Origin: Chromera velia
Taxonomy: Eukaryota
Direction of reading: 5' to 3'
Length of the DNA stretch: 48,207 nt
Assembly: GCA_018398765.1 (NCBI GenBank)
Contig: JAHBMJ010000496.1
Location: 1-48,207 of the forward strand
Under the pieces are notes generated by a model. That model was given only the letters and a program-made list of their open reading frames with translations. It searched no databases and was not told where the DNA came from. Below are positions 2,129 through 44,389 of the stretch, one piece after another (position 1 is the stretch's first letter; every line of letters starts with the position of its first letter). The position numbers and the translations under genes were made by a program.

Positions 2129-3757
2129 GGGCACAGGCCTCTAACAGAAGAAAGAAATACAAAGTTGAAAAGACACTTACAGGAATGGAAAGAAACCTTT
2201 GAGTCAGCGGTGGACTCAACCTAAGCAAGAAAAGGCCTATTTCTATCGCCCATTTGTCCGCTTTCGGCCTCTTTGATGCGCCGTCTAAGAAAGTCTTTGT
2301 CAATTATGTTGGTTGATCGCTCCAAAGGCGATTTGGCTTTTATGTGCCCGAGGGCTTATAAGCATTTTGGGGTTTTTGAGCTCTTTCCTGCCTCTAAAGC
2401 ATTTGAGCATCTGACGGAGGAACAAGTGAAAGAAAAGACAAATCGATGGTTTCGGCCTGCTTGGCCGAAGGTGCTGCTGGAGGCAGTTGAAGTCTTCCCT
2501 CCTAGAAGTAAAGCATCTTACCAGTGGGGGCTTGGGGTAGCTCTTTCAAAAAGAAAATCTTGGAACGAGGAAGGAAAGCCTCCAAGTGGTTGGGGAGAAA
2601 TGAAATTTTGTCCTTTATCTTCGTATTTTCATCATGCTTGGAGAAAGGCTCTTTCTGTTGTTTGTCGGGCTCTGAATTTTTTGACATCTTCTATGTCTCC
2701 TCATGTCACATTGATAGCACCTGATCAATTCATCACTGCAGTAGACAGATTGAATTCAGGAGAGTCAGATTTGACATGCGAACAATTTTCTTTGTGTAAT
2801 CCACAAGGCCCGGCTCATGGAGCAAAACTGTCTGTGAGAATAGAAGATATTAAAGAGTTCTTCCCTTCATGCCTGTGTGAAGAAGTACTTCAGGAAGTGA
2901 ATAAACACATCCGTGAAGTACATGAGGAAAAGAGAGCGAGGTTTATGTGTTTTCCGAAGGGATTGGTTGAGAGAGTTTTTCGTCGGCAAATTAGACCTAG
3001 AGGTGGTCGATTTTTGGCATCATCTGTGTATGTGCGCCTCGTCCCGTTCTTTTCGTCACGTTGCAATTATTTTCATGCTGATGCCCTTCCTTTGTGGTGG
3101 GTGCCTGAGTTCTTGAAACTTGATTTTGAGACTTGTTGCATTAGAGTGGGTAAGTGGTTTCTTCATCAGAAAGAAGGGTGGCCACAGGGGGCGCCAGTGT
3201 CTCCGGGGGGGACGCAGTTTTATGCTGCCCGCAAAGAGAGGCAATGGGCTCAGCATAGGGGTGTGGATTCTTTTAGAACTGATGCATGGTTAATAGCTCG
3301 TTGGATTGATGATCGTCTGATTGTGTTTCGGCATCAGGAGTAGCTTTCACTTAGTCAATCTTCTTTTCTTTCTGCTTTCTTCAATCCATAATTTTATGCT
3401 CCTACATGCAAGCTTGTGCAGCAAGAAAAGAATGACTTCTTGCAGTTTCATTTGTCAGTATATCCAGTTACTGCAAGACTGTTTTGTACGCCTAAGAAGT
3501 CAGTAGCTCCTTTTCCTCGCTATATGCATGCAACTGCTGCTCATCCAAATTTCTTGAAAAAGAGGATTTTGAAGGGTCATTTCATGCGTACGATGTTGTA
3601 TTGTGTCGGTCCCCCATCCATGTTGATTACTGTAATGCATGATTTAATTAATGAGTTGTGCTATTTTGGGTACCCACGAGAGTTATGTGTACATACAGCA
3701 AGGGAGGTGTATTATATGTTGTTTCGTTTGCCGTTGCCGGACTGTTTATCAGATTGA
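2129..3757 (+). pseudogene. Penelope-like element (PLE) reverse transcriptase, inactivated by in-frame stops
   Basis: One reading frame carries EWK...IMLVDRSKGDLAFMC, RT motif A EDIKEFFPS, motif B' HQKEGWPQGAPVSP, motif C ARWIDD, then PLE-type thumb motifs FLQFHL...RYMHATAAHPNFLKKRILKGHFMR...C...LCYFGYP. ORFs 2273..3343 and 3416..3757 share a frame, broken by TAA 2222, TAG 3341 and TAA 3389. Confidence 0.85.
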
Positions 3758-10646: not shown

Positions 10647-10687
<41 letters not shown>

Positions 10688-10697
10688 AAATATATAT

Positions 10698-11407
10698 ATG
10701 TTAAGGGAGACAACGAATATAGATGAACGACAGGTGGGTTTCAGGAAGGGGGTCGGTACAAGAGAAGCGATAGCTACTCTTTATGCTCTCACGACTTCAG
10801 CAAAGAAGAGACACAGACGCCTCCTTGCAGCGTTTGTTAACTTTAGCAAGGCATTTGACCGAGTATCCAGAAAGAAAATGATTGACAGACTTAGAGAGGA
10901 AGGAGTTAGCGAGAAGGACGTGTGCATGATTCATTCCATATATATGAATATGTCGGGAAGGGTGGATAGGTCGGATTGGGTTTTTTCCGAAAGTGCAGGG
11001 GTAAAACAGGGAGATCCACTTTCTCCTCTTCTTTTTCTTTTGTTTATTAATAATATTCATTCTGCTCTGAGTGTTGAAGGGAGGGAAACTGTTAACGGCT
11101 TGGATGGGGAATCAGATACGGATGAAAGACAGAGGGGGGGAGAATGTGGAGAGAGGAGGGAGGAGAGTGAAACAACGGAGCAGCGATCCCGTATCCCTGA
11201 GGAGGTAAGATTGGCGGACTTACTGCTTGAGAGCATAGGTTATGCAGACGATCTTGTTATTTTTGCTCACTCTTCTTCTGACCTGCAGTGGTGTTTGGAC
11301 CGTTTGGCCTCTTATTGTCAGGAACATGGGTTGAAAGTGAATTTAAAGAAAACAAAAGTTCTCGCACTCTCAGGCTCAAGAAGGGAAATAGAAGGGGAAG
11401 TGACTTT
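10698..11407 (+). pseudogene. Non-LTR retrotransposon (LINE) ORF2, RT part; 5'-truncated at a (TA)n tract
   Basis: QVGFRKG, AFVNFSKAFDRV, GVKQGDPLSPLLFLLFI, GYADDLV, GLKVNLKKTKV. Confidence 0.93.
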
Positions 11408-12996
11408 ATGACATAATGAGACCTACCGGACTTTAACATCATTTTGGACTTTGAAATATAGGAATAACATAGGGTGTTCTATTGTATTTAATCGTTGTTT
11501 ATAAGCTTTTAAATTTAATAAACATTCTTTAAAACGTGATTCTTTTAAAACAAAAGATAAAACAAAGAATTGAAGCTAGTTGTATCAATGTTAGATTATA
11601 ACTATATTTTAGTAACCATAATAGTAGCTGCATAATTGGCATATCTATGCATGATGCAATAAATGCGATCGAAAAGTAGATAGTTACCCCTGAAACTATT
11701 TAGTTTTAATTGACCCTACCTAACCAGGTCTGGCGACTGGATTTGCTCCCCCACTCCCCCAAGAAGGACCAATTAATAAATGACCTACCTAGGTCCTTTC
11801 GGGCAAAACCGTCCCCCACTCTCCTGGAGGTGGAGGTGAGAGGCAGCCCCAAAGCGACAAAATCTGCAATTGGTTCTTGTGGGGGCGGCGACCCGCGGCG
11901 ATTCATAGGTGCTGATCTGCTAGTGCTCCTCTTAATGCTCCGAAAGATGCTTTTCAGTGTTGTGGGTGCAGTCAACGCGCACGGAAAGGCAAACAAGCTA
12001 GCCAGATCTGACAGATTGAGCCTCTCCAATGACCTGCACAAAAAGAAACTTTATGCACACGAATTGCTTTGAGATAAAAGCCCCCCCAAAGCCACTTACT
12101 GATGACACTGTNNNNNNNNNNNNNNNNNGCAGACGATCTTGTTATTTTTGCTCACTCTTCTTCTGACCTGCAGTGGTGTTTGGACCGTTTGGCCTCTTAT
12201 TGTCAGGAACATGGGTTGAAAGTGAATTTAAAGAAAACAAAAGTTCTCGCACTCTCAGGCTCAAGAAGGGAAATAGAAGGGGAAGTGACTTTATGACATA
12301 ATGAGACCTACCGGACTTTAACATCATTTTGGACTTTGAAATATAGGAATAACATAGGGTGTTCTATTGTATTTAATCGTTGTTTATAAGCTTTTAAATT
12401 TAATAAACATTCTTTAAAACGTGATTCTTTTAAAACAAAAGATAAAACAAAGAATTGAAGCTAGTTGTATCAATGTTAGATTATAACTATATTTTAGTAA
12501 CCATAATAGTAGCTGCATAATTGGCATATCTATGCATGATGCAATAAATGCGATCGAAAAGTAGATAGTTACCCCTGAAACTATTTAGTTTTAATTGACC
12601 CTACCTAACCAGGTCTGGCGACTGGATTTGCTCCCCCACTCCCCCAAGAAGGACCAATTAATAAATGACCTACCTAGGTCCTTTCGGGCAAAACCGTCCC
12701 CCACTCTCCTGGAGGTGGAGGTGAGAGGCAGCCCCAAAGCGACAAAATCTGCAATTGGTTCTTGTGGGGGCGGCGACCCGCGGCGATTCATAGGTGCTGA
12801 TCTGCTAGTGCTCCTCTTAATGCTCCGAAAGATGCTTTTCAGTGTTGTGGGTGCAGTCAACGCGCACGGAAAGGCAAACAAGCTAGCCAGATCTGACAGA
12901 TTGAGCCTCTCCAATGACCTGCACAAAAAGAAACTTTATGCACACGAATTGCTTTGAGATAAAAGCCCTCCCAAAGCCACTTACTGATGACACTGT
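11244..12996. repeat. Tandem duplication 11244-12111 / 12129-12996 around a 17-N gap; probable assembly artefact
   Basis: Offset 885; only one difference noticed (C12084 / T12969); N run at 12112-12128. Confidence 0.85.
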
Positions 12997-14009
12997 GTTG
13001 TTGCATTGCCCACAAACGGCCCACAAGGCGAACTGAGTAGCCAAAAATGGCAAGCCACAAATGGCGAGGCAGCACAAGTGGTATGTAGTATTACATTGGA
13101 CTCTTTTGATCTTTAAATCGTTCATGCACAATAGATGACCTCAGAGGGGCCTGATAGCTGTTTTGGGTAAAGAGATTGTTGAGAAAAGAAGATGTACAGT
13201 TGTCTATCTGTATAGAAGACGCTCATAAGGCAAGCCTACCACTAGATGGTCTCTCGGATCAATGTGCATGAGGTAGGACAAGCAGACTGAACGCCGGTTT
13301 GAACGTTGTGTAATTAAAAGCCACAATGAGCGAATCTTGCCCTCTACTACGCAGCAATCGCACTGTCGAGAGGTTGTCTGTGACTTTGAGCTCTTTTTAT
13401 GTGGAGCCGTTTTCGATCTGCTCTCAGATTGTAGTTCGGTCTGATGCAAATGTCAGACAAAAGCAGCATGAAGCAGCAAGATCAGACATTTTGAGTACGT
13501 TCGCACGCGCGCTAATTATTTTTACTTGACTTGGGAGGCACTTTTGTTGCGTGCCCCTCAAGCAATCATCGGAGTGCGTACGAAAGTGTATGCATGCATT
13601 TAATATGCGCGCGTCTGACCTTCAAGTTGTTGTCTTAGTTCTGATTTGCTTTCTGGAATTGCTATTGAAGCAAGCTTGTATCTGAAAGCATTCCAACAAC
13701 ATAAAGACAAGCCGGCATAACCTCTGGTGGTGTATATTGTCTTATCGCCTCTCCGGGCATGTATTGGTCTGGCATAGATATATAGATGCGCCTGACCTAC
13801 ACAGATCGATCCACCAGTTCCGGAAGCGTCCAGCTGCATAAAGATCTTTGCATGTGCCAATCAATTGACCTCTGGCCGCCTCTGGCCTATTCCCATCTGT
13901 ACAGACTGCGTTACCCCTCATTTGTCTCTGCCGGTTTGTATTTGACCATCGTTTTGACTCCAAACGACTTTTTTATTGTCTGTGTTTCTTACCGCTGTTT
14001 GAGTCGGTT

Positions 14010-16138
14010 CAAGTACATACGTACAGCTCGGCGCAGAGAGACGATAGCCTTACTTTTGAGAGAGTGGGAGGGCTCCCTCCCGTTCTCAACCCGTGTGACA
14101 GTCCGGCTGAAGAGAGATCTGGGAGAGGGGGGCTTTGAGCAGCTAGTAAAACTTCTAAACAAAATGACGAAGGGGTATGTTGCGGCAGCGCGGTTTCATC
14201 GGGAGGTTCTCCTACCAAAATTGAAAGACTACTTCGAGAAAAACAAAGCCTCTGCTTACGTACTCAATACTGCTACCGAGCTGGCGGCGTCTTCAGAGTC
14301 TACGATGATTGCACTTCTTTTCCTCTTTGAGCTGCTGTCCCGACTGGATCTTTCCCTGATAGTCAAGAGTGCACTAGAAATTATGGAGAAGAATTTTAAT
14401 CGAGAGGAGTTCTCTGTTCCTCAGGTAGCTATCCTCTATGGCGGCGACGCCGCCGGCCGTGACTTCACCCTGTCTGCTATCGAAAAGCAGACCCCAATTC
14501 TGGTTCTTCAGGTACGTTTAGATCCTCACCAGCTAGGCAGGCATCCATGTGTGTACATTTCATTCTCCTTTTTCAGGCAATGGATATGTTGTCTGGCGTC
14601 TGCCGTCTCTACAATTTGTTTGTGCACGGTTTATCTCTGTTTTGAGTGAAAAAGCATTACATTGTCAAGTGGTGCCTTTTTGAGCTGCGTCTTTGGTTCT
14701 TTAATGTCTAGAGGTCTACCTCCGAACTCTTTGATGCCTGGTTGCACATTCTCACATACTGTTATCTCAGGGATGCGGACTTGGGAGGCGACTGTATGTT
14801 CCCTCAGCTCTTCAAGCTGATAACTACAAAGGGGCTCGAAGTGATGCTGATGAGGAGGCTGTCCCAGTCCTGGCACACTGGAGCTGTATCCTTTGGTAAG
14901 TCGATGCCTTTGCCCTCGATATGTGATTGTGCAGGGGGGGCGGGGCGGGGTGGGGTAGGGCGGGGGGGGGTAAGGCGGCGGCAGAGTCGGGGCCGGGGCC
15001 GGCGGCACATATAGAGAGGAGGCCCCAAGATGTTAGAGAGCGGCTAGATGGAGCTTTGACGACCTAGGAGGGCGTTCTAATTGTTCCAGTGCAGATATTT
15101 GGCAGTGGAGCAGAGACGCCGAGTGTCGAGAGTGTCAGCGGGCGGGCTGGGGGGCAGGCGGGGGGGTTGGGCGGGCCGAGGGTGGGTGAGGGCCGGGCCT
15201 AGACCAGGCCGGGGCCGGTGGCACAGGACACTGTGCGTGAAGGGGCACAGAGGAGCCAGTGGGAGGCTGGTGAGAGACAAGTGTGAAGAGTTAGGATATG
15301 AAAAGATGATGTCCTTGCTTCTTGATCGGTACCGGTGACGGCTGTGCTGCTCCCTAAGTCTGGTTTCATACTTTTTCTTGGACTTTTTTGTCTCACCTTC
15401 TCGCTCACGAATGTTTCAAAACCTCCGGACAAATCAGGTCTGATTTGTCTGGAGGTTTTTTTCAAAATTTTTTGAATAAGTTGGACAAGAACAAAAGCGG
15501 TCGGAATCGCTTTGTATCGACGTAAAAAGAGTTTTCCGACCGCTTTTGTTCTTGTCCAACTTATTTAAAAAATTTTGAAAAAAACCTCCAGACAAATCAG
15601 GCCTGATTTGTCCGGAGGTTTTGAAACATTCGTGAGCGAGAAAGTGAGACAAAAAGGTCTAAAGAAGAGTGTGAAACCAGACCCAGGGAGCAGTACGGCC
15701 GTCAGCGGTACCCTTCAAGGAGCCAAGACATGCACGTTTCATGTTCTAACTTTTCATAGTCCCCTCTCACCAATCCTCCACTGGCTTCTCTGAACCCCTT
15801 GAGACAAAGTGTCCTGTGACGACTCCGGCCCGCCCACCCCCCCGCCTGCCCACCAACTCATTCGATACTTACCTTTGCTCCACTGCCAGTTGTCTGCACT
15901 GGAACAATTGAAACGCTCCCCTAAGGGGTTAAAGCTCTATCTAGCCACTCTCTGACATCTTGGGGCCTCCTCTTTATATGTGCTGCCGGCCCCAGCCCCG
16001 ATCCGGCCGCTGCCCCCACCCTAGAGCCTCCGCCTCCTACCTGCCCTGACCTTTGTCTCTCCCCTTTTGACCCCTTCGCTGGGTGATTCACACATTGCTG
16101 GGCCTTTCTCTTGTTTGTTTCTCCCTGTTTTTTCCCTC

Positions 16139-26144: not shown

Positions 26145-27635
26145 ATGCTCTCTTTAGAGGGTTTTCTCTTTCGTGTGCTCGCCTGGGTGCTCGGAGTGCC
26201 TCCAGATGTGCAAAGGTTCTTCGAGAGACGGCAGAACCCTGTCGATACTTCTCTCGAGTGGGCACAGAGGCAGAGACGCAGACAGAAGTACCGTCTCCCT
26301 CAGAATGCTGAGGAGACGCACAGACGCACGGCACTGTGCCACTACAGCATATTCCCAGATGTCGATATGTGCAGACAGCTCTTGAGAGAAGGGGCAGATT
26401 CGAATGAGCTTGGATGTAAGGGAGAGGACGATGGATGGGCTCCCATTCATTGTGCAGCCTCTCACGGGAATGCTGAGATCCTTCTTGTCCTTTTGGAAGG
26501 AGGCGCCTTGGTGAATTTGCGAACCTCTGTACAGCAACAGACGGCACTTCACTGTGCTGCTCTCTCTTTGAACAGAGATTGTGTGCTCTGTCTTTTGGCA
26601 TTCGGGGCAGATCCCCGACTAAGAGATGTCGATGGACACTCACCCCTCGACTTTGCCCTTGCAGTTCAGGAGGGGGAAGGGGCGGATAGTGAGGGTCTCG
26701 TGCCCGTCTCCTCTCTACTCCGTCTGAGTCTCAAAGCCCGTATGCCCACCCCAGAAACGAGCCTTCTCCTCCCGTCTGTAGGTGGCATGATGTCAGAAGA
26801 TGTACAGAGAGAGGGGGACAAGGATGCAGGAGAAACGGAGTTTGGTGAAGGGGAAGAGGTGAAGAAGGTGAGACAGGCAGTCGGCCCCCTCGTGAGATCC
26901 GAAGATCTGCACAGAGAAGGGACCGCCACACCAACAGACGCACATGACGGCCCTTCCCTGTCTGTCAACTGTGACTACACGATAGCTGAAGGTCTCACAG
27001 CCCCCCCCTCCTCCCGCCACCCCGACTCTATGGGGTTTCCCTTCTGTGGGACCTTGACGGCCTCATCTTCACGTCCGCTGTCCGGGATTCCTCGGCCCTT
27101 AGAGCCACAGCGCCTTGAGTCAAACTCCTCTGCTGCAAAGCTGTGGGGGCAGACGAACACTGCCTCAGCAGCCTTTGCCCGTCCTGCCTGTTGCCTCTCT
27201 TGGAAAACAACCGGTTTGGTTGGAGGGGAGGCAGGCATTCAAGCGACATCTTGTCAGTGTGACTTCTGTCTGCCCTCGTGTGCATCTGTTTCCGATTCTG
27301 CAATGTCCCCAGTGTCAACAGAGAGACCACAGCAAACGCGCAAGACGAGCGAAACGCACCCACAGGGTTCTTGTGTAGAGCCCCCCCATTCAGCATACTC
27401 CCCCCCTCTCAGTGATGGCGGTGCAGAGAGATGTTTCTATGAAAACATTTCCCCCGTGGACTTTTTGCCCTCTCCTGTAGAGAGGGAGACTTTCTCGGAG
27501 GGGAAAGGGGGGGGGGCAGGGTTTTTTGCAAATGCTTCTTCTGTGCAAGGAGCAGTTGAAGGGAATGGCGACGGGGAGAGCGGGGAGGAAGATGAGAAGG
27601 AGACGGTACTGCATCAATGTGCGCTTCCTGACTGA
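26145..27635 (+). CDS. Ankyrin-repeat protein with long disordered C-terminus
   Basis: DGWAPIHCAASHGNAEILLVLLEGGALVN, QTALHCAA...CLLAFGADP, DGHSPLDFA. An upstream exon is possible (ttttccctttacag at ~26033). Confidence 0.85.
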   Translation: MLSLEGFLFRVLAWVLGVPPDVQRFFERRQNPVDTSLEWAQRQRRRQKYRLPQNAEETHRRTALCHYSIFPDVDMCRQLLREGADSNELGCKGEDDGWAPIHCAASHGNAEILLVLLEGGALVNLRTSVQQQTALHCAALSLNRDCVLCLLAFGADPRLRDVDGHSPLDFALAVQEGEGADSEGLVPVSSLLRLSLKARMPTPETSLLLPSVGGMMSEDVQREGDKDAGETEFGEGEEVKKVRQAVGPLVRSEDLHREGTATPTDAHDGPSLSVNCDYTIAEGLTAPPSSRHPDSMGFPFCGTLTASSSRPLSGIPRPLEPQRLESNSSAAKLWGQTNTASAAFARPACCLSWKTTGLVGGEAGIQATSCQCDFCLPSCASVSDSAMSPVSTERPQQTRKTSETHPQGSCVEPPHSAYSPPLSDGGAERCFYENISPVDFLPSPVERETFSEGKGGGAGFFANASSVQGAVEGNGDGESGEEDEKETVLHQCALPD

Positions 27636-36020: not shown

Positions 36021-39000
36021 TTACCCTTCACCCCTGCTGTATGCATACAACAACGGGGCATGCATAAGATCCGGAGGGAGGCCGACAGCTCTGAAACCTG
36101 CCAGTCTCTTCGTCCATGCCGCAAAAGACGCCGTAAAGCGCCTTTGTCTCTCCTCTTCCGCACGATCCTTCGCCCCCCCCGGCCCTCTTGGGGCCCCCGT
36201 CCCATCTCCAGACCGCCTCTCCTTCACTCTCGGCAACGAAGGAGACAAACCGATGTGGGTGTGTCGTCGCATTTGTGCATTCAATGCACTTTGTTCGCCC
36301 TGTTTTGATGAAAGGAGAGATGAGGAACTCGGCGGAGACGCGTCTGCCTCTCTCCCTCTGTCTCGTGCTTTCAGAGCGTCACCCCTGTCTTCATCTTCCA
36401 TGTCCAAGAACCCCGACTCAGAGGCATTCTCTTGATCTGATTCGGGTGGGGTGTCAATCTCAAACACCTCCACGCTCACGTTCATCCCGGAAGGAGACGG
36501 CAAAAGCATTTCGTTATCCCTCGGAGACAGGACAGAGGCCGGCGTAGGGCTTGGGTGAATGAGTCGGGAGACGGGACCGTTTGAGGGGGGGGTCACAGCA
36601 AAGGATACGGAGGGATGGGGGAGAAGGGAAGAGGGCTGAGGAGTACTTGACACTTCTTTCTCTATCTCTCCCTTTTCTTTTTCGGTTTTCGCTGCCTGGT
36701 GATTCTGCCGTGGAGCCTCCTTCTGATCTTGTTTTGAGAACCTCGGGGTGTGTGATGAAAGGGGAGACGCAGCAATACTCAGCTGGGGGGACAGAAGGAG
36801 GGCAAGGGGGTTGATCAGAGGGGAACGCACTTGGGTCGCACTTGGAGAGATCTGGAGGGATGGTGCCCCCGTATGTCGAAGAGGATGAGTAGTGGACTCA
36901 TCTGTATCCTCACCCCCCTTCTTTGACATTATTCCAGTCTGGTGAAGGAGTAATCGAAGAACGACACGTGGAGGAGGGGGGGGGGGGGGNNNNNNGGGGG
37001 GGGGGGGGGGGTGTTTTCTCTATGGCCTGCAGCACGGCACTCATCCAACATGAGAGCAGACCGCTCCGTAATTCCTCTGAAGCAATCGATTCGCGCAGAC
37101 CCAGAAGAAAGAGACGACGGGACCTTATGACCCCGCGGGAACGGAACGCTTGTGACACCGTCTCCCTGTCACCCCTGGCGTCTTTACTTTCTCTCTGCTT
37201 TCTCGCAGAGCTACTTAGCCCTCCATTGGCGAGGATTAAACCCTCAGCAGGGGCAGGGGGGAGACTGGCACCGAAAACGTCTTTCGATACTGCAGAGACA
37301 CACACTCCTGATTTTGTCTCAGATGGCAGAACCGAAATTTCTGCTGCTTCTGGGGGAAGTGTCCTTGAAGCGATGAGGAGACAGAGGGTGACCATCCTCC
37401 GAAATTGGAGGCTGGACAGGGCTGTGCCTTTGGACTCTGCTGAAAAGAGGAAACACTGGATAGGAGTCGTCTCTCGAACACCCCAGGCAGCACCCGCAGA
37501 ATCCTCGAGGGGGGCTGAAATTTCAATTTCCCTCACTTGTAATGACTTCAGGGGTGCGCTGTTCCTGTCAACCTTCCACGAGGAAGACGCGAAACGCGCC
37601 AGGCTCATAGCCGAAACCCGCCCCCCCTTCTGTAGAGCCTCGACTGCTTTCTTGAGGGCTTCGCTGTTCAGAACAAAGGAGGGAAGTGCTTGGGTAGATG
37701 TAGATGCTGCAGCTGCAGTTTCTCTGCTTTGGGTCATCCGGGGTGATGAAAACGAAGAGAAAGAGGAGGCCAGAGGGAACAGATATTCGACTCGTCGAAT
37801 AGCATTCCGGCCTTCTCGTTCTGCATTGAATGTTCTACGTACAGGCGCGAGTGCTAGAATGGAAATCTCGGGGGGCAGTTGTTGGCTCACAAAAGAAACC
37901 AACCGGGCACAAAGCGTGTCTGCAAGCGCTTCCGCCTCTCTCCTTACCCTTCCTGATCTTATTTCGTAATTCTGCTTTTCGGGCCCAGCCGCATCTTCCC
38001 CTATATAACTACACCCGCCACATTGCTTCTCTTCCTTCTCCCCCTCCATCCAACTCCCTTCGCTGAAGGTGCCCCTACTATGCCGACACCCCCTTTTCCT
38101 TCCTTGAATCTCCCTCAAAACTTCCGAGTTACCGAACCCCGTCTCCCCCCTCTCCAAACTACCAGGCGACTCTCTCCAATCCATCTCAAACAATTCCGAT
38201 ATTGTCGCACTCTGAAAACGTCTAGGCCCCTTTTCACCCCCCGCACCCCTGTCACCCCCCAGATGCCCATACAACATTGCAAGAGGCACCTCTCCCTCTG
38301 TACTCCCCTCATGAGTCTCATTCACCACTTCACTCAACCTACCCCCCTCCGAAAAGGGAAAATTCAACCCCCCCAAGACCCCCCCTCTGCCAAGTGCCGA
38401 TGGAAGCGTCACGGCCCGTCTGAAGAGATTCAACGCCACACCGGGGGTCTGTCCGTCTCCCCCTCCCCCCTCGACCCCCCCATTCCCCGACAGGAGCGTC
38501 TCAGGGGAGGCCGGGGGACTCCCACTCGACCCAGACGGGGCCGACACCTCCAGCCGTCCCGTCACAATCTGCCAGGAGGCAGAGACCCCCCCCTCAGTTG
38601 GGGCCAGACAGGACCAACGGGTTCTCAGAGAGTCCTGAAGGGCCGCGTGAGGAATCAGACCTGCATCTCGGGCGGGCGCCAAGAAAAACAAGAAGGGGAG
38701 GGAGAAGAAAACGTGTTGAGGATGACAGCAAGAAGAGAAAGGCAACAACAAATGGACGTTACGATGCTCCCTCCACAGCATGAGGACATGAAGCACAGGC
38801 TAACCATCCACAGGAAGACAAACAGATCCGACGAGCAAAGCAATAACCAAGAAAGAGTCTGAAAGACAGCCCACGAAACCTCCTACTGGGGTGCTTTCCC
38901 AATGATCCTTTCCGTTTCTCTTCATGCATTTACTTACTCACCTGCTTGAAAGAATGCCGCCTCCAATTCGGAGAGCAGAGAGGGACCATTGGACGACCGC

Positions 39001-39528
39001 TCCCATCCGTGGAGGCCCAGTCCGTTGTACGCAACCTGAGTGGACAGGAAGGAAGGACAAAACAGTCGGGCAGATGGATTGAATCAGGAACTTCGGAAAG
39101 CATTGTGGAGAGATTCGAAACTTGAATAAGCTCCTAAATAAGCACGTAGACGGTCTGCCTGGTGGGTGAGTGAGTACGCAGACGGGTGGAGAAGGGATTC
39201 ACTGGAAGCTTCGGGAAAGGAGAAGGCAGGCAAAGGACAGGAGCGAGAGGGTGGGAAGAGATGTGAAGCATCAAGAAGACTCTATTAAATGGTCGCAGGC
39301 AGACAAGACGATTTGCCCGACCAGCATTGCCACATTGATCCCCTCAGTGTGACTTGACTTCGGATTGGCACTGGGACTCGTTTCTTCATCGTCTCTTCGT
39401 TCTTTTCGTTTCAAGGCTGCGAGGTAGATCACAGCTGCTGTCGCAACACCCAAAGCAGAGGCAGGCAGGAGAAGGGAGTGGTGGACTTGTTTATCCATTG
39501 GGCGACTGTGTGTAGAAATGAGCTGCAC
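36021..39528 (-). CDS. TruA/Pus1-family pseudouridine synthase-like protein, catalytic Asp absent
   Basis: Exon 39035-38942 VAYNGLGLHGWE...ELEAAFFQA splices in phase to 38660 GLIP...WSCLAPTEGGVSASWQIV; then LPPEISILAL...FNA...RRVEYLFP, GTALSSLQFRRMV, PPAPAEGLIL. The frame change near 36990 coincides with an N gap in a G run. The first exon (39528-~39355) is tentative. Confidence 0.78.
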
Positions 39529-40464
39529 TGCTTCAAGATTGCATGGAAAGGTTCATATATATATATAGCTTCCTCAGACCACATCATTTTGTCTCATCGC
39601 GCCTCTTTGCGGCTCCTTCGGGTTGCACGAAACAGAGAATCGAGACCGTCCTCAACTGCTCCATCGATACTGGAAAGGTTTGGCTCGCAAAGTGTCCGAC
39701 TCTCGCTCTGTTCACCCATTTGAGCAACATCTCTTCGTCCACAGGACCAGGTAAACAGTGTATTAGACTGCAAGTAGCAAAGCGAGCCCAGGGCCCCAGG
39801 CCAATGCATCGTACTTCGTCAATTTGACAGCACAGACTTTCTGGTCTGGACCACAATTAACCAGGATAGCGGAAGCAGCAGAGATCAGCAGAGTCGGACG
39901 TAGAATGGACGGGTACGTCATCTATATATAAGACTCATAACTTGCTGCTGCAATGCTAGCGCAAACACCAGAAATGCATCATAATCAGGAGTTGCCGTGC
40001 AACACATGGCAGCTATATAGTGTACGCGCAACACTGCCAATTAACACATCGAATCGCGCGGCCCGCGTAAAAGCCCCGCATGCAGGAAAATGACTGACCT
40101 TCGATCATGCATGCATGCATGCAAACACAGAGCCTGTGACAGAGGTCCTTCGTTCAAGTTTACAAACTGTGATATTAATATGAATATCCTTTCCGCAGTC
40201 AATCCCATCCCATCCCGCCTAGCTGTCTCCTGCCTGCCTGGCTGCACGGCGTTTCTTTCTCATGATTGGCATTTCTTTCTTCTCATGAAAAAGCTAATTA
40301 ATTACTCATGCTCCTCAAATTTGCCGCCCGCCGGACTGTCGTGTATCTGTGCTTTCCCAGTGCATGCATGACTCCCTCATGTGTATACATCTTCCAACAG
40401 TGAGGTTCAAAGTGTAAGCTCATTCAAAGACTTTCTACTCAACCAGATTGCCCTCCTACTCAAC

Positions 40465-42947
40465 ATGAACTTGAGTGCAATTCCGGTCGAGCTTGTTGAC
40501 TTGTTCTCTGAAGCCCCATCTCCATGGCACGGCACTTGCCTCAGATCACTCTCAATCGCTTCTAAGTACCGAGAGAATGGCATTGAAGGAATGATGGAGG
40601 GTTGTACTCTCGTCATTTGCGATGCCGACCCCTTTCTTAAAAGAGTCAATCCGTCAGAAGATGACTCGGCGCAGAGACGGACAGAGCAGGGCGCTGTGCT
40701 CGAACGAAACATCGAGCCCCATCCTCAACTAGACATTCGATCAGACAGAGGAAAAAGCAGACTGAGGCGACGGATGAACAAAGACGGAGCCCTCATCATT
40801 GATGGATGTACAGGGAGATTTATGGCGTCAGAAGTTTTCTTGAAGTACAATGGGACTGCTCCACGGCTTGGGGGGGGTCTGGGGACCGCCGTTGCAGAGG
40901 AGGTCGCGAGAAGTTCGGGGGCTTTCTGCATCAAGGTATCAAGGGATGGGGCCATTTTCGTGTTTTGCGGTGAGGCACGGCCACAAAAATGGAAAGGGGA
41001 AGATGCCCGTCTTCTGAAAGAGAATTATGGTGGTCATCTCGGTATCGATCTCGAAAAGGCGAAGCTTCACTTTCAGCATGAGCTTCCAGAGAACTACCAG
41101 ATCGTGAAAGAAGTGGGAAGAGGGAGATTTGGCTGCTGCTTTCTTGTTGCCAAGAAGCCTGAGCGATTGTACACTGCCGATTGCAGGAATAGTGAATGGC
41201 TGAAGCACCCATTGAAACCTTATCTGAGTCTCCCTCCCTTCCCGCCCCAAACAGAAGCCCGTGCGTACTCCGACGAAGAGTACGATCAGATGCGACACAA
41301 GAAGCTGAGAAACGAAGAAGATGACACAAGCCCGCAGCTGGTCGTCAAAGTCGTCCTAGGGCAACTCATTGACAAGCCGAGAAGACCTGCAATCTTCTAT
41401 AAGAGGAGCTCCGGGTACACTCTCGCTCTTTCCTTCAGAGCTTTTCCCCTCTCCCTCGATGATCTCCCCTTCACCCTGTGTATCCTCAAACACCACCATC
41501 TCCGGTATAAAGAGGTGCACGGCGACTTGAACCCCAGCAACATGTACTACTTTGCTAAAGACGTGAAAGCGCATGACAGAAACACGCTGTACCCGAGCAC
41601 AGAAGAAGATGGTTCCATCACCTACACAAGGACCGCTTTGCAGCATCACATAGTAGATGTCATGATCAACCCAGAGTTTCAGCTCTCATACAAGTGGGAG
41701 GGGGGAGAGGATGAAAAGACGTGGTGCATAATCGACAGTGATCAAGGAGGAACAATCGCTTCACCTAAGCAAATCGTCAGCACGTACCACCATGACCCCC
41801 GAAACGCCACATGGGAAGTGTCCGATGACCTCATTGGTCTTCTCAACTGTGTGGTTGTCCGCATTGTTGGGCCACACGGCCTCAAGGTCGATACCGCGAA
41901 GGGGTTTTGCTATTCCGTCAGTCTGGACTCTTTGCAGGGTCTCTACCTACGCATCAAAAAGCTGTATGAGGACATAGAAAGTGATCCAAGCCGAGGCTAC
42001 CCCGTCCCAATCCCAGACCCTGAAAAGTGGAAAAAACCGTTGGAGTGGCAACCTGTCCCCGGCACAAGTTTTCTCGATGAGTTAGTGGGAGGAGGGCCGA
42101 TGCTTCGCTTCGTGCGGCCCTTTACTGATGCTTATTCCGTCCTGGATTCTGTCTCTCTCACTCAGCCGTCTTGTATCGCCATCACATCCCCTGTCGTGCC
42201 CCAGCAACAGACTCCCGTGAAAGTCTCTGCAGTTCTCCAACCACACACGCTTGCAACAGGCCTCCGGGAGTGGAGAGTGTTTGAGAGACTGCGGTGGCAG
42301 TGGAGAAGCACGTCGGAAGAATCAGAATTTCTAGACACCCTGACGAGACTTGTCAGCATTGCCGTTGAGAGGCCTCCAAAAGGAGGTACGGGGGATAGAA
42401 GTCTTGGGGGATGGTTGGTGGCTTTGGTGGAGAAAGAGAGGAAGTCGGGGATTCCGATTACTGTCCAAGACGGGGGCACACTTTTGGATGTCTTGCGTCA
42501 GGTGGGTGGGTTGAAGGTACATAGTGAGACCTTCAAGTCAGTCATAACGGCATTTTCTGTGAAGACCGGATCAGACAGGTGGGAAAGCCGCCTCCTCGAC
42601 AGTCTCTTTCAAACTCTTGCACGCTCAACAGTGGCAGACAGGCATATGCACTCGAGGACCATCCGAAAGACGGAGGGTTTGTGTGTACCTTCAGTGGGAC
42701 TGTGGTTGCAGCCACGGTCTTGTTGCAGGGTGACACTGCTCCCTACTGTCTTGAGGGGTTGGACGGGAAGTCTGCAGCTGGCAGGCACGACGGAGCTTTC
42801 AAAGGCGCGGAGTGGATGAGTGCAAAAGGCATGAAGGGGGTGGTGGTTGTGAAGTCTGAGAGTGGCAGAGTTCACATGGTTTTTCCCGGCAGACCCGCCC
42901 AAACGACGCCGGCAGTATTGCCAACAGTGTTTAAAATTGAACTGTAA
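40465..42947 (+). CDS. DAC (DisA_N/diadenylate cyclase-like) - protein kinase-like - DAC fusion protein
   Basis: N-terminal domain IASKYRENGIEGMMEGCTLVICD...KDGALIID...IKVSRDGAIFVF. Kinase motifs VGRGRFG, VVKVV, VHGDLNPSN, IIDSDQG. C-terminal domain PKDGGFV..SGTVVAATVLL...GRHDGA...VVVKSESGRV in the overlapping ORF 42579..42947, joinable by a 53-nt GT-AG intron (42579-42631). Confidence 0.82.
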
Positions 42948-44389
42948 GGTGATAAACCTAGTGATAGACTACTTTTTCGCCATCCTTAATTTCATATTCA
43001 CAATAAACTTTTCATCTTCTCAGTTTATATTTTTCGATAAACATCATACTACTACTAAGTAAAAGGTTATATATATTGTAGCATCATGATACGACTAGTG
43101 TAGACTAGTGATATGATTTGATGTGCTCTTCATAGCTCTTCATTACTAGCTTCATTATTTGTTAAGATAAATATTTCTAGAAATATTTCTTTAGCTTATT
43201 ATAAAATGTAAGCATCTTTCTCGCCGGTAGACTAGTATTAAAACTATAGTTATGGAGCACTTTTTGTTTTTATCGCTAGACCTTGAAGGTGGAGTTTTAT
43301 ACTACCTCTAGAGAAACCTCTAGTCTAGTGTCTAGTGATGTCTTAGCCTACTGAGCCTAGGCTGGGACTTCACAGTAATTTCCACTAAAAATTTCTGTTT
43401 CCGACGTTTCAGTCAACCTCTTATATATTTACTAGTACAATAACTAAAAAAACTCTTAATCAATCTGAATTTTATTCATGTTATCATCGCTTACTATCTT
43501 ATTAAACTGTAAAACTACATTCAATCTAGTATTCAATACTGTTCTAATTTATTTGTATTCTTTGTTTGATCAAAACTGACTTAGAAATCATTGTGATATT
43601 GATTAAGTCAATTTATTAAGTCTACATATCAACAGGTTTAAATTTGCAAACTTTAGTTAAGATTAGTAGCTAGATTGATATCTCAAACAGTTTTGTTCTT
43701 TCAATTTTTTTTTTAATGTGCACCTCTTCTCTTCTTCACCCTTGGAGCAGGATCAAAATTTTAATGGTATGCCTCCTTTTGAGATGCAGGTCGAATCGGA
43801 TGCGGCGAGGCTGATCCAATGGAGGCGGAATGGCCACGGGTGGCACAGAGAGGCAAACGCTGCATTCAAACTAGGCATTCAAAAGGCAAGAAAAAATGTG
43901 GATCCACAAACTATTCACAGTGAAAAGAGCTAAAATTTTGGAGGATTTGCGAAAGAACAAATGAAAAGAAAGGTAAGTGTGACCTGTCGTCACTGACTAG
44001 TTAGTTTAGTCACCTAGGTAGTCACAAATCTCTCCCATCCCTGTGGGTGAGGTGATCGAGTTCCTGCAGGTTGCGGGACTCCAACATATGCTTCAAAAAA
44101 CCCTTTTTAACCTTCTTGGGAAGCGGTTTTCTCAAGAACCCCGCCCCATTTTGGATCTCTCTCCATGCAGCTCCCCGGGCCTGCAGGTCCAGACATCCTG
44201 CAAAGGGATCAAAGAAACCGCATGAGTCTGTGCAATTAAAAGAGGAAGGAGAAGATAGGAAAGGTTATAAACTGTCGAAGACATACAGAGAGGACTCTTG
44301 TGACTGTATGGGCCAATGCGCAGACTGTTGGTCTTTCTGCCTATCTGACAGTATTTGTCTGCCTCTTTGTTCACTTGCCTCAGGCTGCT

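What the first reader, a model, noticed from the sequence alone, without database searches (positions are those of the whole stretch)
40465..42947. Eukaryotic DAC-kinase-DAC fusion: candidate cyclic-dinucleotide signalling or defence enzyme
Seen: a ~809-aa product with two DisA_N-like domains around a kinase-like domain. The first has the EG..G..VxxD entry strand, DGA at 40783-40791 and the terminal VSxDG hairpin. The second has DGG at 42669-42677, RH at 42783-42788 and VKSESG. Established: DAC domains (DisA, CdaA, DacZ) make c-di-AMP using DGA and RHR motifs and are regarded as bacterial/archaeal. Inference: in this spliceosomal-intron eukaryote, the protein may couple phosphorylation to cyclic-dinucleotide synthesis or sensing. 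I know of no characterised protein with this architecture.
Basis: partly seen in the sequence, partly recalled or inferred. Interest (0 to 1): 0.92.

Follow-up and report, generated by a model that had tools for sequence, protein, structure and literature searches.

The report
Eukaryotic kinase-fused diadenylate cyclase family
A gene of a single-celled alga joins a kinase-fold domain to two copies of the domain that bacteria use to make the messenger cyclic di-AMP, and kinase-plus-cyclase relatives sit in stony-coral genomes, so algae and corals likely carry an overlooked cyclic-dinucleotide-making enzyme, although the copy in this genome is broken by a small deletion and no activity has been tested.

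Summary
The three domains are real: an N-terminal DAC (DisA_N) fold, an atypical protein-kinase fold with all catalytic residues, and a C-terminal DAC. (1) There is no intron: the window copy lacks 7 bases behind 42643; a spliced RNA run of another isolate carries them, which opens one 829-codon frame and restores the family's 37-residue motif spacing. This copy therefore loses the catalytic half of the second DAC. (2) The first DAC has no Arg-His and is likely a pseudo-enzyme. The larger result lies outside the window: 53 kinase-DAC relatives, the two named ones in Acropora millepora and Pocillopora damicornis, share the kinase-DAC join (33% identity over 642 columns). They belong to a clade of some 90 divergent DAC domains (named members: Chromera velia, Polykrikos) that mostly keep Asp, Arg and His (73 of 94) and are fused to kinases, channels, C2 and SAM domains. 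Ten literature searches found no eukaryotic DAC family; the main DAC survey could not be read. Best reading: a eukaryotic cyclic-dinucleotide synthase family, likely shared sideways between corals and algae; activity untested.

The parts
40465..42947 (+). Single-exon gene; 829 codons in the open allele, frameshifted in this genome (784-aa frame ends at 42819)
   Evidence: RNA contig with 7 extra letters
40573..41010 (+). N-terminal DAC-fold domain, likely pseudo-enzyme: EGCTLVICD 40597-40623, DGA 40783-40791, GGGLGTAV in place of GTRHR 40870-40893, VSRDG 40936-40950
   Evidence: Atlas structure TM 0.66-0.73 to DAC; NCBIfam DisA E 0.079; 56% identical to C. velia P0237, which keeps GGGLGTA; positions
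41020..42087 (+). Atypical protein-kinase-fold domain: GRGRFG 41116-41133, Lys295 41347-41349, HGDLNPSN 41518-41541, IIDSD 41728-41742, DDLIG 41824-41838
   Evidence: fold; invariant residues; positions
42238..42642 (+).
   Evidence: family profile E 2e-18, profile positions 15-127
42643..42644 (+). Frame break: 7 bases missing in this genome relative to an RNA contig of another isolate
   Evidence: table 4 (run X3, one contig, depth 2.7); both DNA runs X1, X2 read as the window; spacing test
42645..42947 (+). Second half of the C-terminal DAC in the shifted frame: PKDGG 42663-42677, AGRHDG 42777-42794, VKSESG 42849-42866, stop 42945-42947
   Evidence: family profile E 2.4e-28, profile positions 120-221
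37000..39932 (-). Spliced neighbour gene, head to head with the DAC gene (context that ties the locus to the eukaryote; not part of the system)
   Evidence: CT..AC joints 38658/38940 and 39033/39320 in runs X3 and X8

Best explanation
The gene encodes a pseudo-DAC, a kinase-fold domain and a DAC domain in one frame that is broken by a 7-base deletion in this genome, and its open allele and its coral relatives are likely cyclic-dinucleotide synthases whose output the kinase domain would control. Shown: the three folds, the break, the open allele in one RNA contig of another isolate, the coral kinase-DAC relatives and the kept Asp/Arg/His. Inferred from known DAC chemistry: two C-terminal DAC domains would meet face to face and join two NTPs into a 3'3' cyclic dinucleotide; c-di-AMP for the coral type (Thr kept at the DisA T107 position), perhaps a mixed product for the algal copy, which has Gly at both the T107 and T111 positions, like cUMP-AMP-making PanS. 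Inferred, weaker: the kinase (all catalytic residues kept) would switch the cyclase by phosphorylation or by changing its pairing, and the Arg-His-less first DAC would act as a built-in regulator, not as a catalyst. The allele in this window would make no cyclic dinucleotide. The organism is likely Chromera velia, and the kinase-DAC unit was likely passed sideways between the coral and algal lineages, direction unknown.
For: Fold: model of the Acropora protein (mean pLDDT 81) matches solved DACs over its C-terminal part (2fb5 Z 11.3, rmsd 2.9, 148 aligned; DacM 7dg0 Z 11.0; DisA 3c1y Z 10.3) and kinases over its N-terminal part (Wee1 Z 11.7). 7 of 9 first relatives pass the Pfam PF02457 cut-off; 16 of 17 PDB matches of the family profile are DACs, best E 0.0099. 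Catalytic residues across 94 non-redundant family domains: Asp 86, Gly 94, Arg 79 (+9 Lys), His 88, Ser 88; Asp+Arg+His together 73 of 94; 14 of 14 coral-type; the window has D, G, R, H, S. Asp and this Arg are the residues whose mutation kills PanS (PMC13640721 passages), and active PanS enzymes read DGF/GGR, so loss of the Thr and of the second Arg need not be fatal (10.64898/2026.08.10.743927 passages). Kinase residues in 27 rows: Lys 26, His 27, Asp 27, Asn 27, Mg-site Asp 26 (+1 Glu). Break: 7 extra letters in X3 give a DRW-to-DG[AG] span of 37, as in 41 of 49 coral-type proteins and the Chromera paralog; 1, 4 or 10 letters would give 35, 36, 38. X3 is spliced RNA with its own SNPs. Coral link: 53 kinase-DAC-type proteins, the named ones Acropora millepora (19.5-Mb contig) and Pocillopora damicornis; colinear alignment over window residues 181-810, 33% identity, E 2e-94; window plus coral kinases form one side of a 99/97 branch against the kinase-only relatives.
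Against: No activity, ligand or expression level was measured. The window copy is broken, and the open allele rests on one contig of depth 2.7 from one study. The family departs from canonical DACs: the second Arg of RHR is mostly replaced (Ala 41, Ser 15 of 94), and the acidic residue after the conserved Ser sits at +1 (Asp 74, Glu 9) while the position of CdaA's metal-binding Glu is mostly Ala, Ser or Gly (active-site list from PMC7288161); a long insertion lies before the DGA motif. The window's own C-terminal DAC also lost the GT of GTRH (AGRH; Gly at the Thr column in 1 of 94). The window's DAC domains have no Pfam hit and were poorly modelled in my own fold (pLDDT mostly under 50). Nothing shows that the kinase acts on the DAC; most family DACs have no such kinase. 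In the DAC tree the Chromera pair is a long, unplaced branch; joining it to the corals is not rejected (p-AU 0.635) but not shown. Only 2 of the 53 coral-type proteins and 3 of the other DAC proteins looked up carry a source name, so the range is thinly named.
Confidence: 0.5

Rival explanations
1. The family DAC is a nucleotide sensor, not a synthase: it would bind ATP or bacterial c-di-AMP and switch the fused kinase, channel or other module.
For: Fusions to output modules: Pkinase in P0053, P0061, P0065; Ion_trans in P0071, P0125; C2/DM9 in P0113, P0124; SAM in P0123. Second Arg and the CdaA Glu position are not kept. An Arg-His-less DAC is kept in two Chromera genes.
Against: Asp, Arg and His of the catalytic site are kept together in 73 of 94 domains and in 14 of 14 coral-type domains; active bacterial DACs with non-canonical motifs exist.
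Confidence: 0.25
2. In this alga the gene is a decaying relic; whatever the coral genes do, the three-domain protein has no function.
For: Frameshift in both DNA runs; long branch in both trees; only short, low-depth RNA contigs; the three-domain order was found once; coral-type copies also break (L001 has two in-frame stops).
Against: Another isolate has the open frame at the break; 726 codons are free of stops and every kinase catalytic residue is kept at 33-38% identity to corals; an unbroken paralog with DGG and GSRH exists (P0050).
Confidence: 0.2
3. One reading: 42579-42631 is an intron and the product is 809 aa.
For: The stretch starts with GT after CAG, ends with CAG, and its removal joins the two frames.
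Against: It codes the conserved DRW helix; the X3 contig keeps 42 of its letters and crosses its acceptor unspliced; dozens of other GT-AG pairs join the frames equally well.
Confidence: 0.03
4. The stretch is foreign DNA (coral or bacterial) wrongly joined into the algal assembly.
For: The closest kinase-DAC relatives are coral genes; the gene has no intron.
Against: One contig in each of two DNA runs spans 39500-43600 at the depth of the neighbour (these runs may be the window's source); identity to corals is only 33%; GC 0.525 against 0.566 for the neighbour; the closest relatives of both DAC domains are Chromera proteins; RNA of another isolate covers it with SNPs.
Confidence: 0.02

Closest known systems
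DisA, CdaA, CdaS, CdaM and DacZ diadenylate cyclases (Pfam PF02457 DAC)
   Same: Fold (Z 10.3-11.3 to 2fb5, 7dg0, 8ofj, 3c1y for the coral relative; TM 0.66-0.73 for the N-terminal domain); DG[AG] and G-T-R-H motifs; conserved Ser.
   Different: Eukaryotic; long insertion with GG..D and DRW motifs before DGA; second Arg of RHR and the (V/I)SEE Glu not kept; fused to a kinase-fold domain instead of TM, linker-HhH or PK_C-type domains; no activity shown.
PanS of PanDA/Panoptoo (minimal DAC, makes 3'3'-cUMP-AMP or c-di-AMP; PMC13640721, 10.64898/2026.08.10.743927)
   Same: Divergent motif with Gly at the DisA T107 position; the window's C-terminal DAC has Gly at T107 and T111 positions (PanS: Gly and Ala). 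The best Atlas feature hits of the N-terminal domain are 114-158-aa proteobacterial DAC clusters (score 0.87-0.88, a lead only).
   Different: PanS is a stand-alone bacterial protein next to a 2TM-beta effector; here the DAC is part of a multi-domain eukaryotic protein and no effector is known.
CdaG / DS-2C (DACNG-DACNH-DAC)
   Same: An intact DAC behind a degenerate DAC-like domain: PMC13640721 says DACNH is distantly DAC-like without catalytic residues (passage).
   Different: No DACNG or DACNH hit in the window protein; a kinase-fold domain lies between the two DAC folds; no CBASS context.
Protein-kinase-like superfamily (ePK fold)
   Same: Fold match to Wee1, CDC7, CK1, SRPK, PknG; G-loop, beta-3 Lys, HxD, Asn and Mg-site Asp kept.
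   Different: HGD/HAD for HRD, Asn/His/Ser for the catalytic-loop Lys, D-x-D for DFG, no helix C between beta-3 and beta-4 in either model; below Pfam Pkinase cut-off; substrate unknown.
Eukaryotic cyclic-dinucleotide synthases cGAS/cGLR and Dictyostelium DgcA
   Same: Would give a eukaryote its own cyclic dinucleotide (role as described in the two preprints' introductions).
   Different: Unrelated folds (nucleotidyltransferase, GGDEF); this is the DAC fold.

Membership tests
DAC (DisA_N) domain | DAC fold, N-terminal domain | tested here: met
   Atlas model, residues 1-140 of P0001: 10 of 10 rows are PF02457 DAC, TM 0.66-0.73. My own model of this part was low-confidence.
DAC (DisA_N) domain | DAC fold, C-terminal domain | tested here: met
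   Shown on the coral relative P0186 (Z 11.3, rmsd 2.9, 148 aligned) and carried to the window by profile hits E 2e-18 and 2.4e-28 on the two halves; the window's own domain was not folded whole.
DAC (DisA_N) domain | Pfam PF02457 gathering score | tested here: not met
   No hit on any window piece at E<=1. Relatives: 7 of 9 pass; of 88 further hits scanned, 39 match at E<=0.001 and 6 pass the cut-off.
Active diadenylate cyclase | Catalytic Asp of DGA | tested here: met
   D107 in the N-terminal domain, Asp of DGG in the C-terminal domain; 86 of 94 family domains.
Active diadenylate cyclase | Arg-His of RHR, C-terminal domain | tested here: met
   RH at 42783-42788, but out of frame in this genome; Arg 79 and His 88 of 94.
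Active diadenylate cyclase | Arg-His of RHR, N-terminal domain | tested here: not met
   GGGLGTAV; the same in P0237.
Active diadenylate cyclase | Full G-T-R-H-R and (V/I)SEE consensus | tested here: not met
   Window AGRHD and KSES; family mostly GTRH[AS] and RSD[ASG]. Active PanS enzymes also depart from the consensus.
Active diadenylate cyclase | Both halves of the domain in one reading frame in this genome | tested here: not met
   Break behind 42643 in the window and in runs X1, X2; open in X3.
Active diadenylate cyclase | Face-to-face pairing of two DAC domains | not tested
Active diadenylate cyclase | Synthesis of a cyclic dinucleotide from NTPs | not testable with these tools
   Needs an enzyme assay.
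Protein-kinase-like superfamily | Two-lobed kinase fold | tested here: met
   Foldseek E 6e-5; Z 9.5, rmsd 5.3, 198 aligned; coral relative Z 11.7, rmsd 3.8, 188 aligned.
Protein-kinase-like superfamily | G-loop, beta-3 Lys, catalytic Asp and Asn, Mg-binding Asp | tested here: met
   G218/G220/G223, K295, D354, N359, D424; kept in 24-27 of 27 rows.
Canonical eukaryotic Ser/Thr or Tyr protein kinase (Pfam Pkinase) | HRD, DFG, helix C Glu, Pfam cut-off | tested here: not met
   HGD, DSD, no helix between beta-3 and beta-4 in both models; no Pkinase hit in the window; best relative 19.1 bits against cut-off 31.7.
Protein-kinase-like superfamily | Phosphotransfer to a protein or small molecule | not testable with these tools
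   Needs an assay.
PanDA / Panoptoo | Stand-alone ~150-aa DAC | tested here: not met
   Multi-domain protein.
PanDA / Panoptoo | Adjacent 2TM-beta effector gene | tested here: inconclusive
   Pfam scans of 22 other frames of the window named no such family, but spliced genes were not modelled; no PADLOC DAC-system hit.
CdaG / DS-2C | DACNG and DACNH domains before the DAC | tested here: not met
   No Pfam hit at E<=1 on the N-terminal 202 residues or the whole frame; a kinase fold lies there instead.

The most novel reading that the evidence does not exclude
Stony corals, chromerids and dinoflagellates share an undescribed eukaryotic family of active DAC enzymes, so an animal makes c-di-AMP-type messengers with a bacterial-fold cyclase of its own genome; the kinase-gated form crossed between reef corals and a coral-associated alga and serves host-symbiont or innate-immune signalling (corals have STING, recalled), with the algal copy tuned to a mixed dinucleotide by Gly substitutions and a built-in pseudo-DAC.
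Probability: 0.3. Interest if true: 0.93.

Novelty: new variant of a known kind. Interest (0 to 1): 0.8.

Why it matters
DAC enzymes are treated as prokaryotic in the papers I could read: the 2020 review lists them among prokaryotic synthases and the two August 2026 preprints on DACs in immunity survey bacteria only. A DAC clade with kept catalytic residues in coral genomes and in alveolate algae would add a third route, beside cGAS/cGLR and GGDEF, by which eukaryotes make cyclic dinucleotides, and would be the first DAC of an animal. It is directly testable with two public coral proteins. A kinase-DAC gene shared by corals and a chromerid is also a candidate for gene transfer between reef partners. 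The window's own copy matters less: it is broken here and its three-domain order is a singleton.

Tried and rejected
Intron model: rejected (see rivals). Pfam on five pieces of the gene: 0 hits at E<=1; phmmer of the 784-aa frame against the PDB: 1 chance hit, E 1.3; NCBIfam: only DisA at E 0.079 for the N-terminal domain; PADLOC: weak kinase hits only. My fold of the 784-aa frame was good only for the kinase part, so the DAC folds rest on the Atlas model and the coral relative. No relative in viral contigs, prokaryotic genomes, plasmids or phages; these are exact-pattern or tblastn searches that reach close relatives only, so a bacterial or viral donor is not excluded; the viral structure search listed only generic kinases and two unrelated polyproteins in its top 50. 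Profile scans with the wider DAC alignments could not be run for want of a conserved stretch. Atlas search with the coral DAC: nearest clusters are bacterial DAC/DACNV/DACNK-type, best score 0.91, no close one. Profile comparison of the N-terminal DAC pair with the family: probability 61%, so the two DACs of the gene are probably not a recent duplication (inference). No RNA holder was listed on record; runs X8, X9, X10 have no contig on the gene, which says nothing on expression. The first AU test on 94 rows did not finish; the one reported used 32 of the 94 rows, chosen by me across the clades, quick tree, no mixture model. No bacterial outgroup was at hand, so the DAC tree has no root. The complex predictor was not available, so DAC pairing is untested. 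No whole genome was held, so copy number in this genome is not known beyond two named paralogs. Literature: ten searches (listings only) showed no paper on a eukaryotic DAC family; the phrase search gave 0 papers. Galperin 2023 'All DACs in a row' (PMC10127676), Burroughs 2015 (PMC4678834) and He 2020 (10.1093/nar/gkaa112) are not held; they or their supplements may mention eukaryotic DAC hits or a DAC-kinase family, which would lower the novelty. No supplements were read.
Full report
What is in the sequence. An open frame runs from ATG 40465 to a stop at 42819 (784 aa) and holds the DGA motif, the kinase motifs and the start of a second DAC-like region. The DGG, RH and VKSESG motifs lie in another frame, 42528-42947. 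Pfam finds nothing in five pieces of the gene at E<=1, so other evidence was needed.

The break is a deletion, not an intron. That stretch codes residues 705-723, with the DRW motif whose Trp is kept in 71 of 72 family domains. Run X3, of the same species label but another study, has a contig over 42590-42767 that keeps these letters and carries 7 more behind 42643. X3 and X8 skip two CT..AC introns of the neighbour gene and share three SNPs against the window, so they are spliced RNA of another isolate or allele. Seven letters open one frame of 829 codons and give a DRW-to-DG[AG] span of 37 residues, the value in 41 of 49 coral-type proteins with both motifs (52 examined) and in the Chromera paralog; 1, 4 or 10 letters would give 35, 36 or 38. 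Both DNA runs X1 and X2, which may be the window's source, read as the window in one contig over 39500-43600. So the deletion is in this DNA and is not a fault of one assembly. Caveat: the open allele rests on one contig of depth 2.7. Four short, low-depth contigs of X3 and X4 (one study) lie on the gene; they show presence in RNA runs, not strand or level.

The three folds. N-terminal domain: the Atlas model of residues 1-140 of P0001 matches PF02457 DAC models at TM 0.66-0.73 in all 10 rows shown. Its only clear relative is P0237, named by UniRef 'DAC domain-containing protein' of Chromera velia, 56% identical; both have GGGLGTA where DACs have GTRHR, so neither has the catalytic Arg-His. 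Middle domain: protein-kinase fold, with G-loop, K295, H352, D354, N359 and D424 kept in 24-27 of 27 aligned rows, but HGD for HRD, D-x-D for DFG and no helix C in either model. C-terminal domain: both halves hit a profile of the family (E 2e-18 and 2.4e-28); read through with X at the break it scores 152.8 bits on a profile without Chromera sequences, against at most 0.5 for 500 shuffles. The intact coral relative folds with mean pLDDT 81 and matches solved DACs at Z 10.3-11.3 and kinases at Z up to 11.7.

Relatives. The first search gave 9 kinase-DAC-type proteins, 7 of which pass the Pfam DAC cut-off. A search with one of them gave 55 hits, 53 of this type; the two with names are Acropora millepora LOC122957725 on a 19.5-Mb contig and Pocillopora damicornis pdam_00011303; 51 are unnamed, and I call them coral-type because they form one 97-support group with the named two in the DAC tree (14 representatives). 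35 of the 53 match all four motif patterns I tested; the others are fragments, truncated or variant. The Acropora protein aligns colinearly over window residues 181-810 (33%, 642 columns, E 2e-94), across the kinase-DAC join. None has the N-terminal DAC. The profile search of 1.84 billion representatives gave 140 hits: beyond the coral type, a wide set of DAC domains with the same insertion and PKDGA/GTRH motifs, and a small kinase-only group. Of 20 such and coral-type proteins looked up by name, named ones are Chromera velia Cvel_7208 (P0050), Polykrikos kofoidii (P0125), Phalansterium solitarium (kinase-only P0145, P0156), the two corals and one EukProt transcript without taxon. Partners of the DAC in 88 hits scanned include Pkinase (3), Ion_trans (2), C2/DM9 (2), SAM, ankyrin and DUF4116, which points to eukaryotes (inference). 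No close relative was found in prokaryotic genomes, plasmids, phages or viral contigs.

Origin. The nearest relatives of both DAC domains are Chromera velia proteins, so the window is likely from that alga (inference). The gene stands head to head with a spliced gene on one contig and has a similar GC content, which argues against a mis-join. In the kinase tree, the window and 18 coral-type rows are one side of a 99/97 branch. In the DAC tree the Chromera pair is a long branch without supported place; a tree that joins it to the corals is not rejected and scores 4.5 log units better than the free quick search (p-AU 0.635, 32 of 94 rows). With the colinear join this favours one origin of the kinase-DAC fusion. 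Chromera velia lives with stony corals (recalled), so sideways transfer is the simplest reading; direction and route are unknown, the trees are unrooted, and loss from an old ancestor is not excluded.

How it likely works. DACs join two NTPs at the face-to-face interface of two domains, using the Asp of DGA and Thr-Arg-His, a Ser and, in CdaA, a Glu (PMC7288161, passages). Among 94 non-redundant family domains, Asp is kept in 86, Arg in 79, His in 88, Ser in 88, and Asp+Arg+His in 73; the second Arg and the Glu position are not kept. In PanS, mutation of the Asp or this Arg abolishes activity, the motifs read DGF and GGR, and Gly/Ala at the DisA T107/T111 positions goes with cUMP-AMP synthesis (PMC13640721, section 5 and passages; 10.64898/2026.08.10.743927, first fifth of the text and passages). 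The window's C-terminal DAC has Gly at both positions; corals have Thr and Ala or Ser. I therefore take the open allele and the coral proteins as likely cyclic-dinucleotide synthases (about 0.6 for the family), with control by the kinase as the weakest step (about 0.3), and the first DAC as a regulator, by analogy to the DAC-like DACNH domain of CdaG. The allele in this window cannot make a whole second DAC. Rivals are a nucleotide sensor (0.25) and a decaying relic (0.2).

Novelty. The fold is known and databases already tag some of these proteins automatically (PF02457; the UniRef name). Ten searches of the held library found no paper on a eukaryotic or coral DAC family, but three key surveys are not held. 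An earlier unchecked note of this scan reports another, also broken, DAC gene in a eukaryote, and one reports a dead-plus-intact DAC pair in bacteria; neither was tested here. Verdict: a new variant of a known enzyme kind, interest 0.8, carried by the family and the coral link more than by this broken copy.

Noticed in passing
P0186, P0205 and 51 further proteins: Stony corals carry a kinase-DAC gene family with Asp, Thr, Arg and His kept in 14 of 14 representatives; several copies are truncated or broken, as in fast-turnover gene families.
   Followed up: yes
P0053, P0061, P0065, P0071, P0125, P0113, P0124, P0123, P0069, P0078: The same DAC clade is fused to canonical protein kinases, ion-channel domains, C2/DM9, SAM and DUF4116, and occurs as a tandem pair in P0078; the one taxon-named member is the dinoflagellate Polykrikos.
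   Followed up: partly
P0145, P0156, P0161, P0163, P0165, P0167, P0171, P0090: A kinase-only sister group (two named from the amoebozoan Phalansterium) with HGD..PxN, DxD, H[HE]DPR and DDLIG motifs and no Pfam hit at E<=0.001: an unnamed atypical kinase family.
   Followed up: partly
P0237 (C. velia, UniRef A0A0G4F0C9): Second Arg-His-less DAC with the same GGGLGTA loop, in front of a long coiled-coil-like repeat region.
   Followed up: partly
L001:209-2443 and L001:2870-3040: A coral-type kinase-DAC copy without introns and with two in-frame stops; its 3' flank looks like a cnidarian short interspersed repeat (recalled, not tested).
   Followed up: no
window 37000-39932, minus strand: Spliced neighbour gene; weak likeness to tRNA pseudouridine(38/39) synthase (E 0.42), a lead only.
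   Followed up: partly
window 10683-11411 and 2225-3343: Reverse-transcriptase fragments (RVT_1 E 1.8e-23; E 0.046), likely retroelement remains.
   Followed up: no
window 26145-27635: Ankyrin-repeat frame of 496 aa.
   Followed up: no
window 13786-14649: Exon-like frame that reads like the SLOG/LSDAT region of TRPM-type channels (recalled); Pfam gave no hit at E<=0.1.
   Followed up: no
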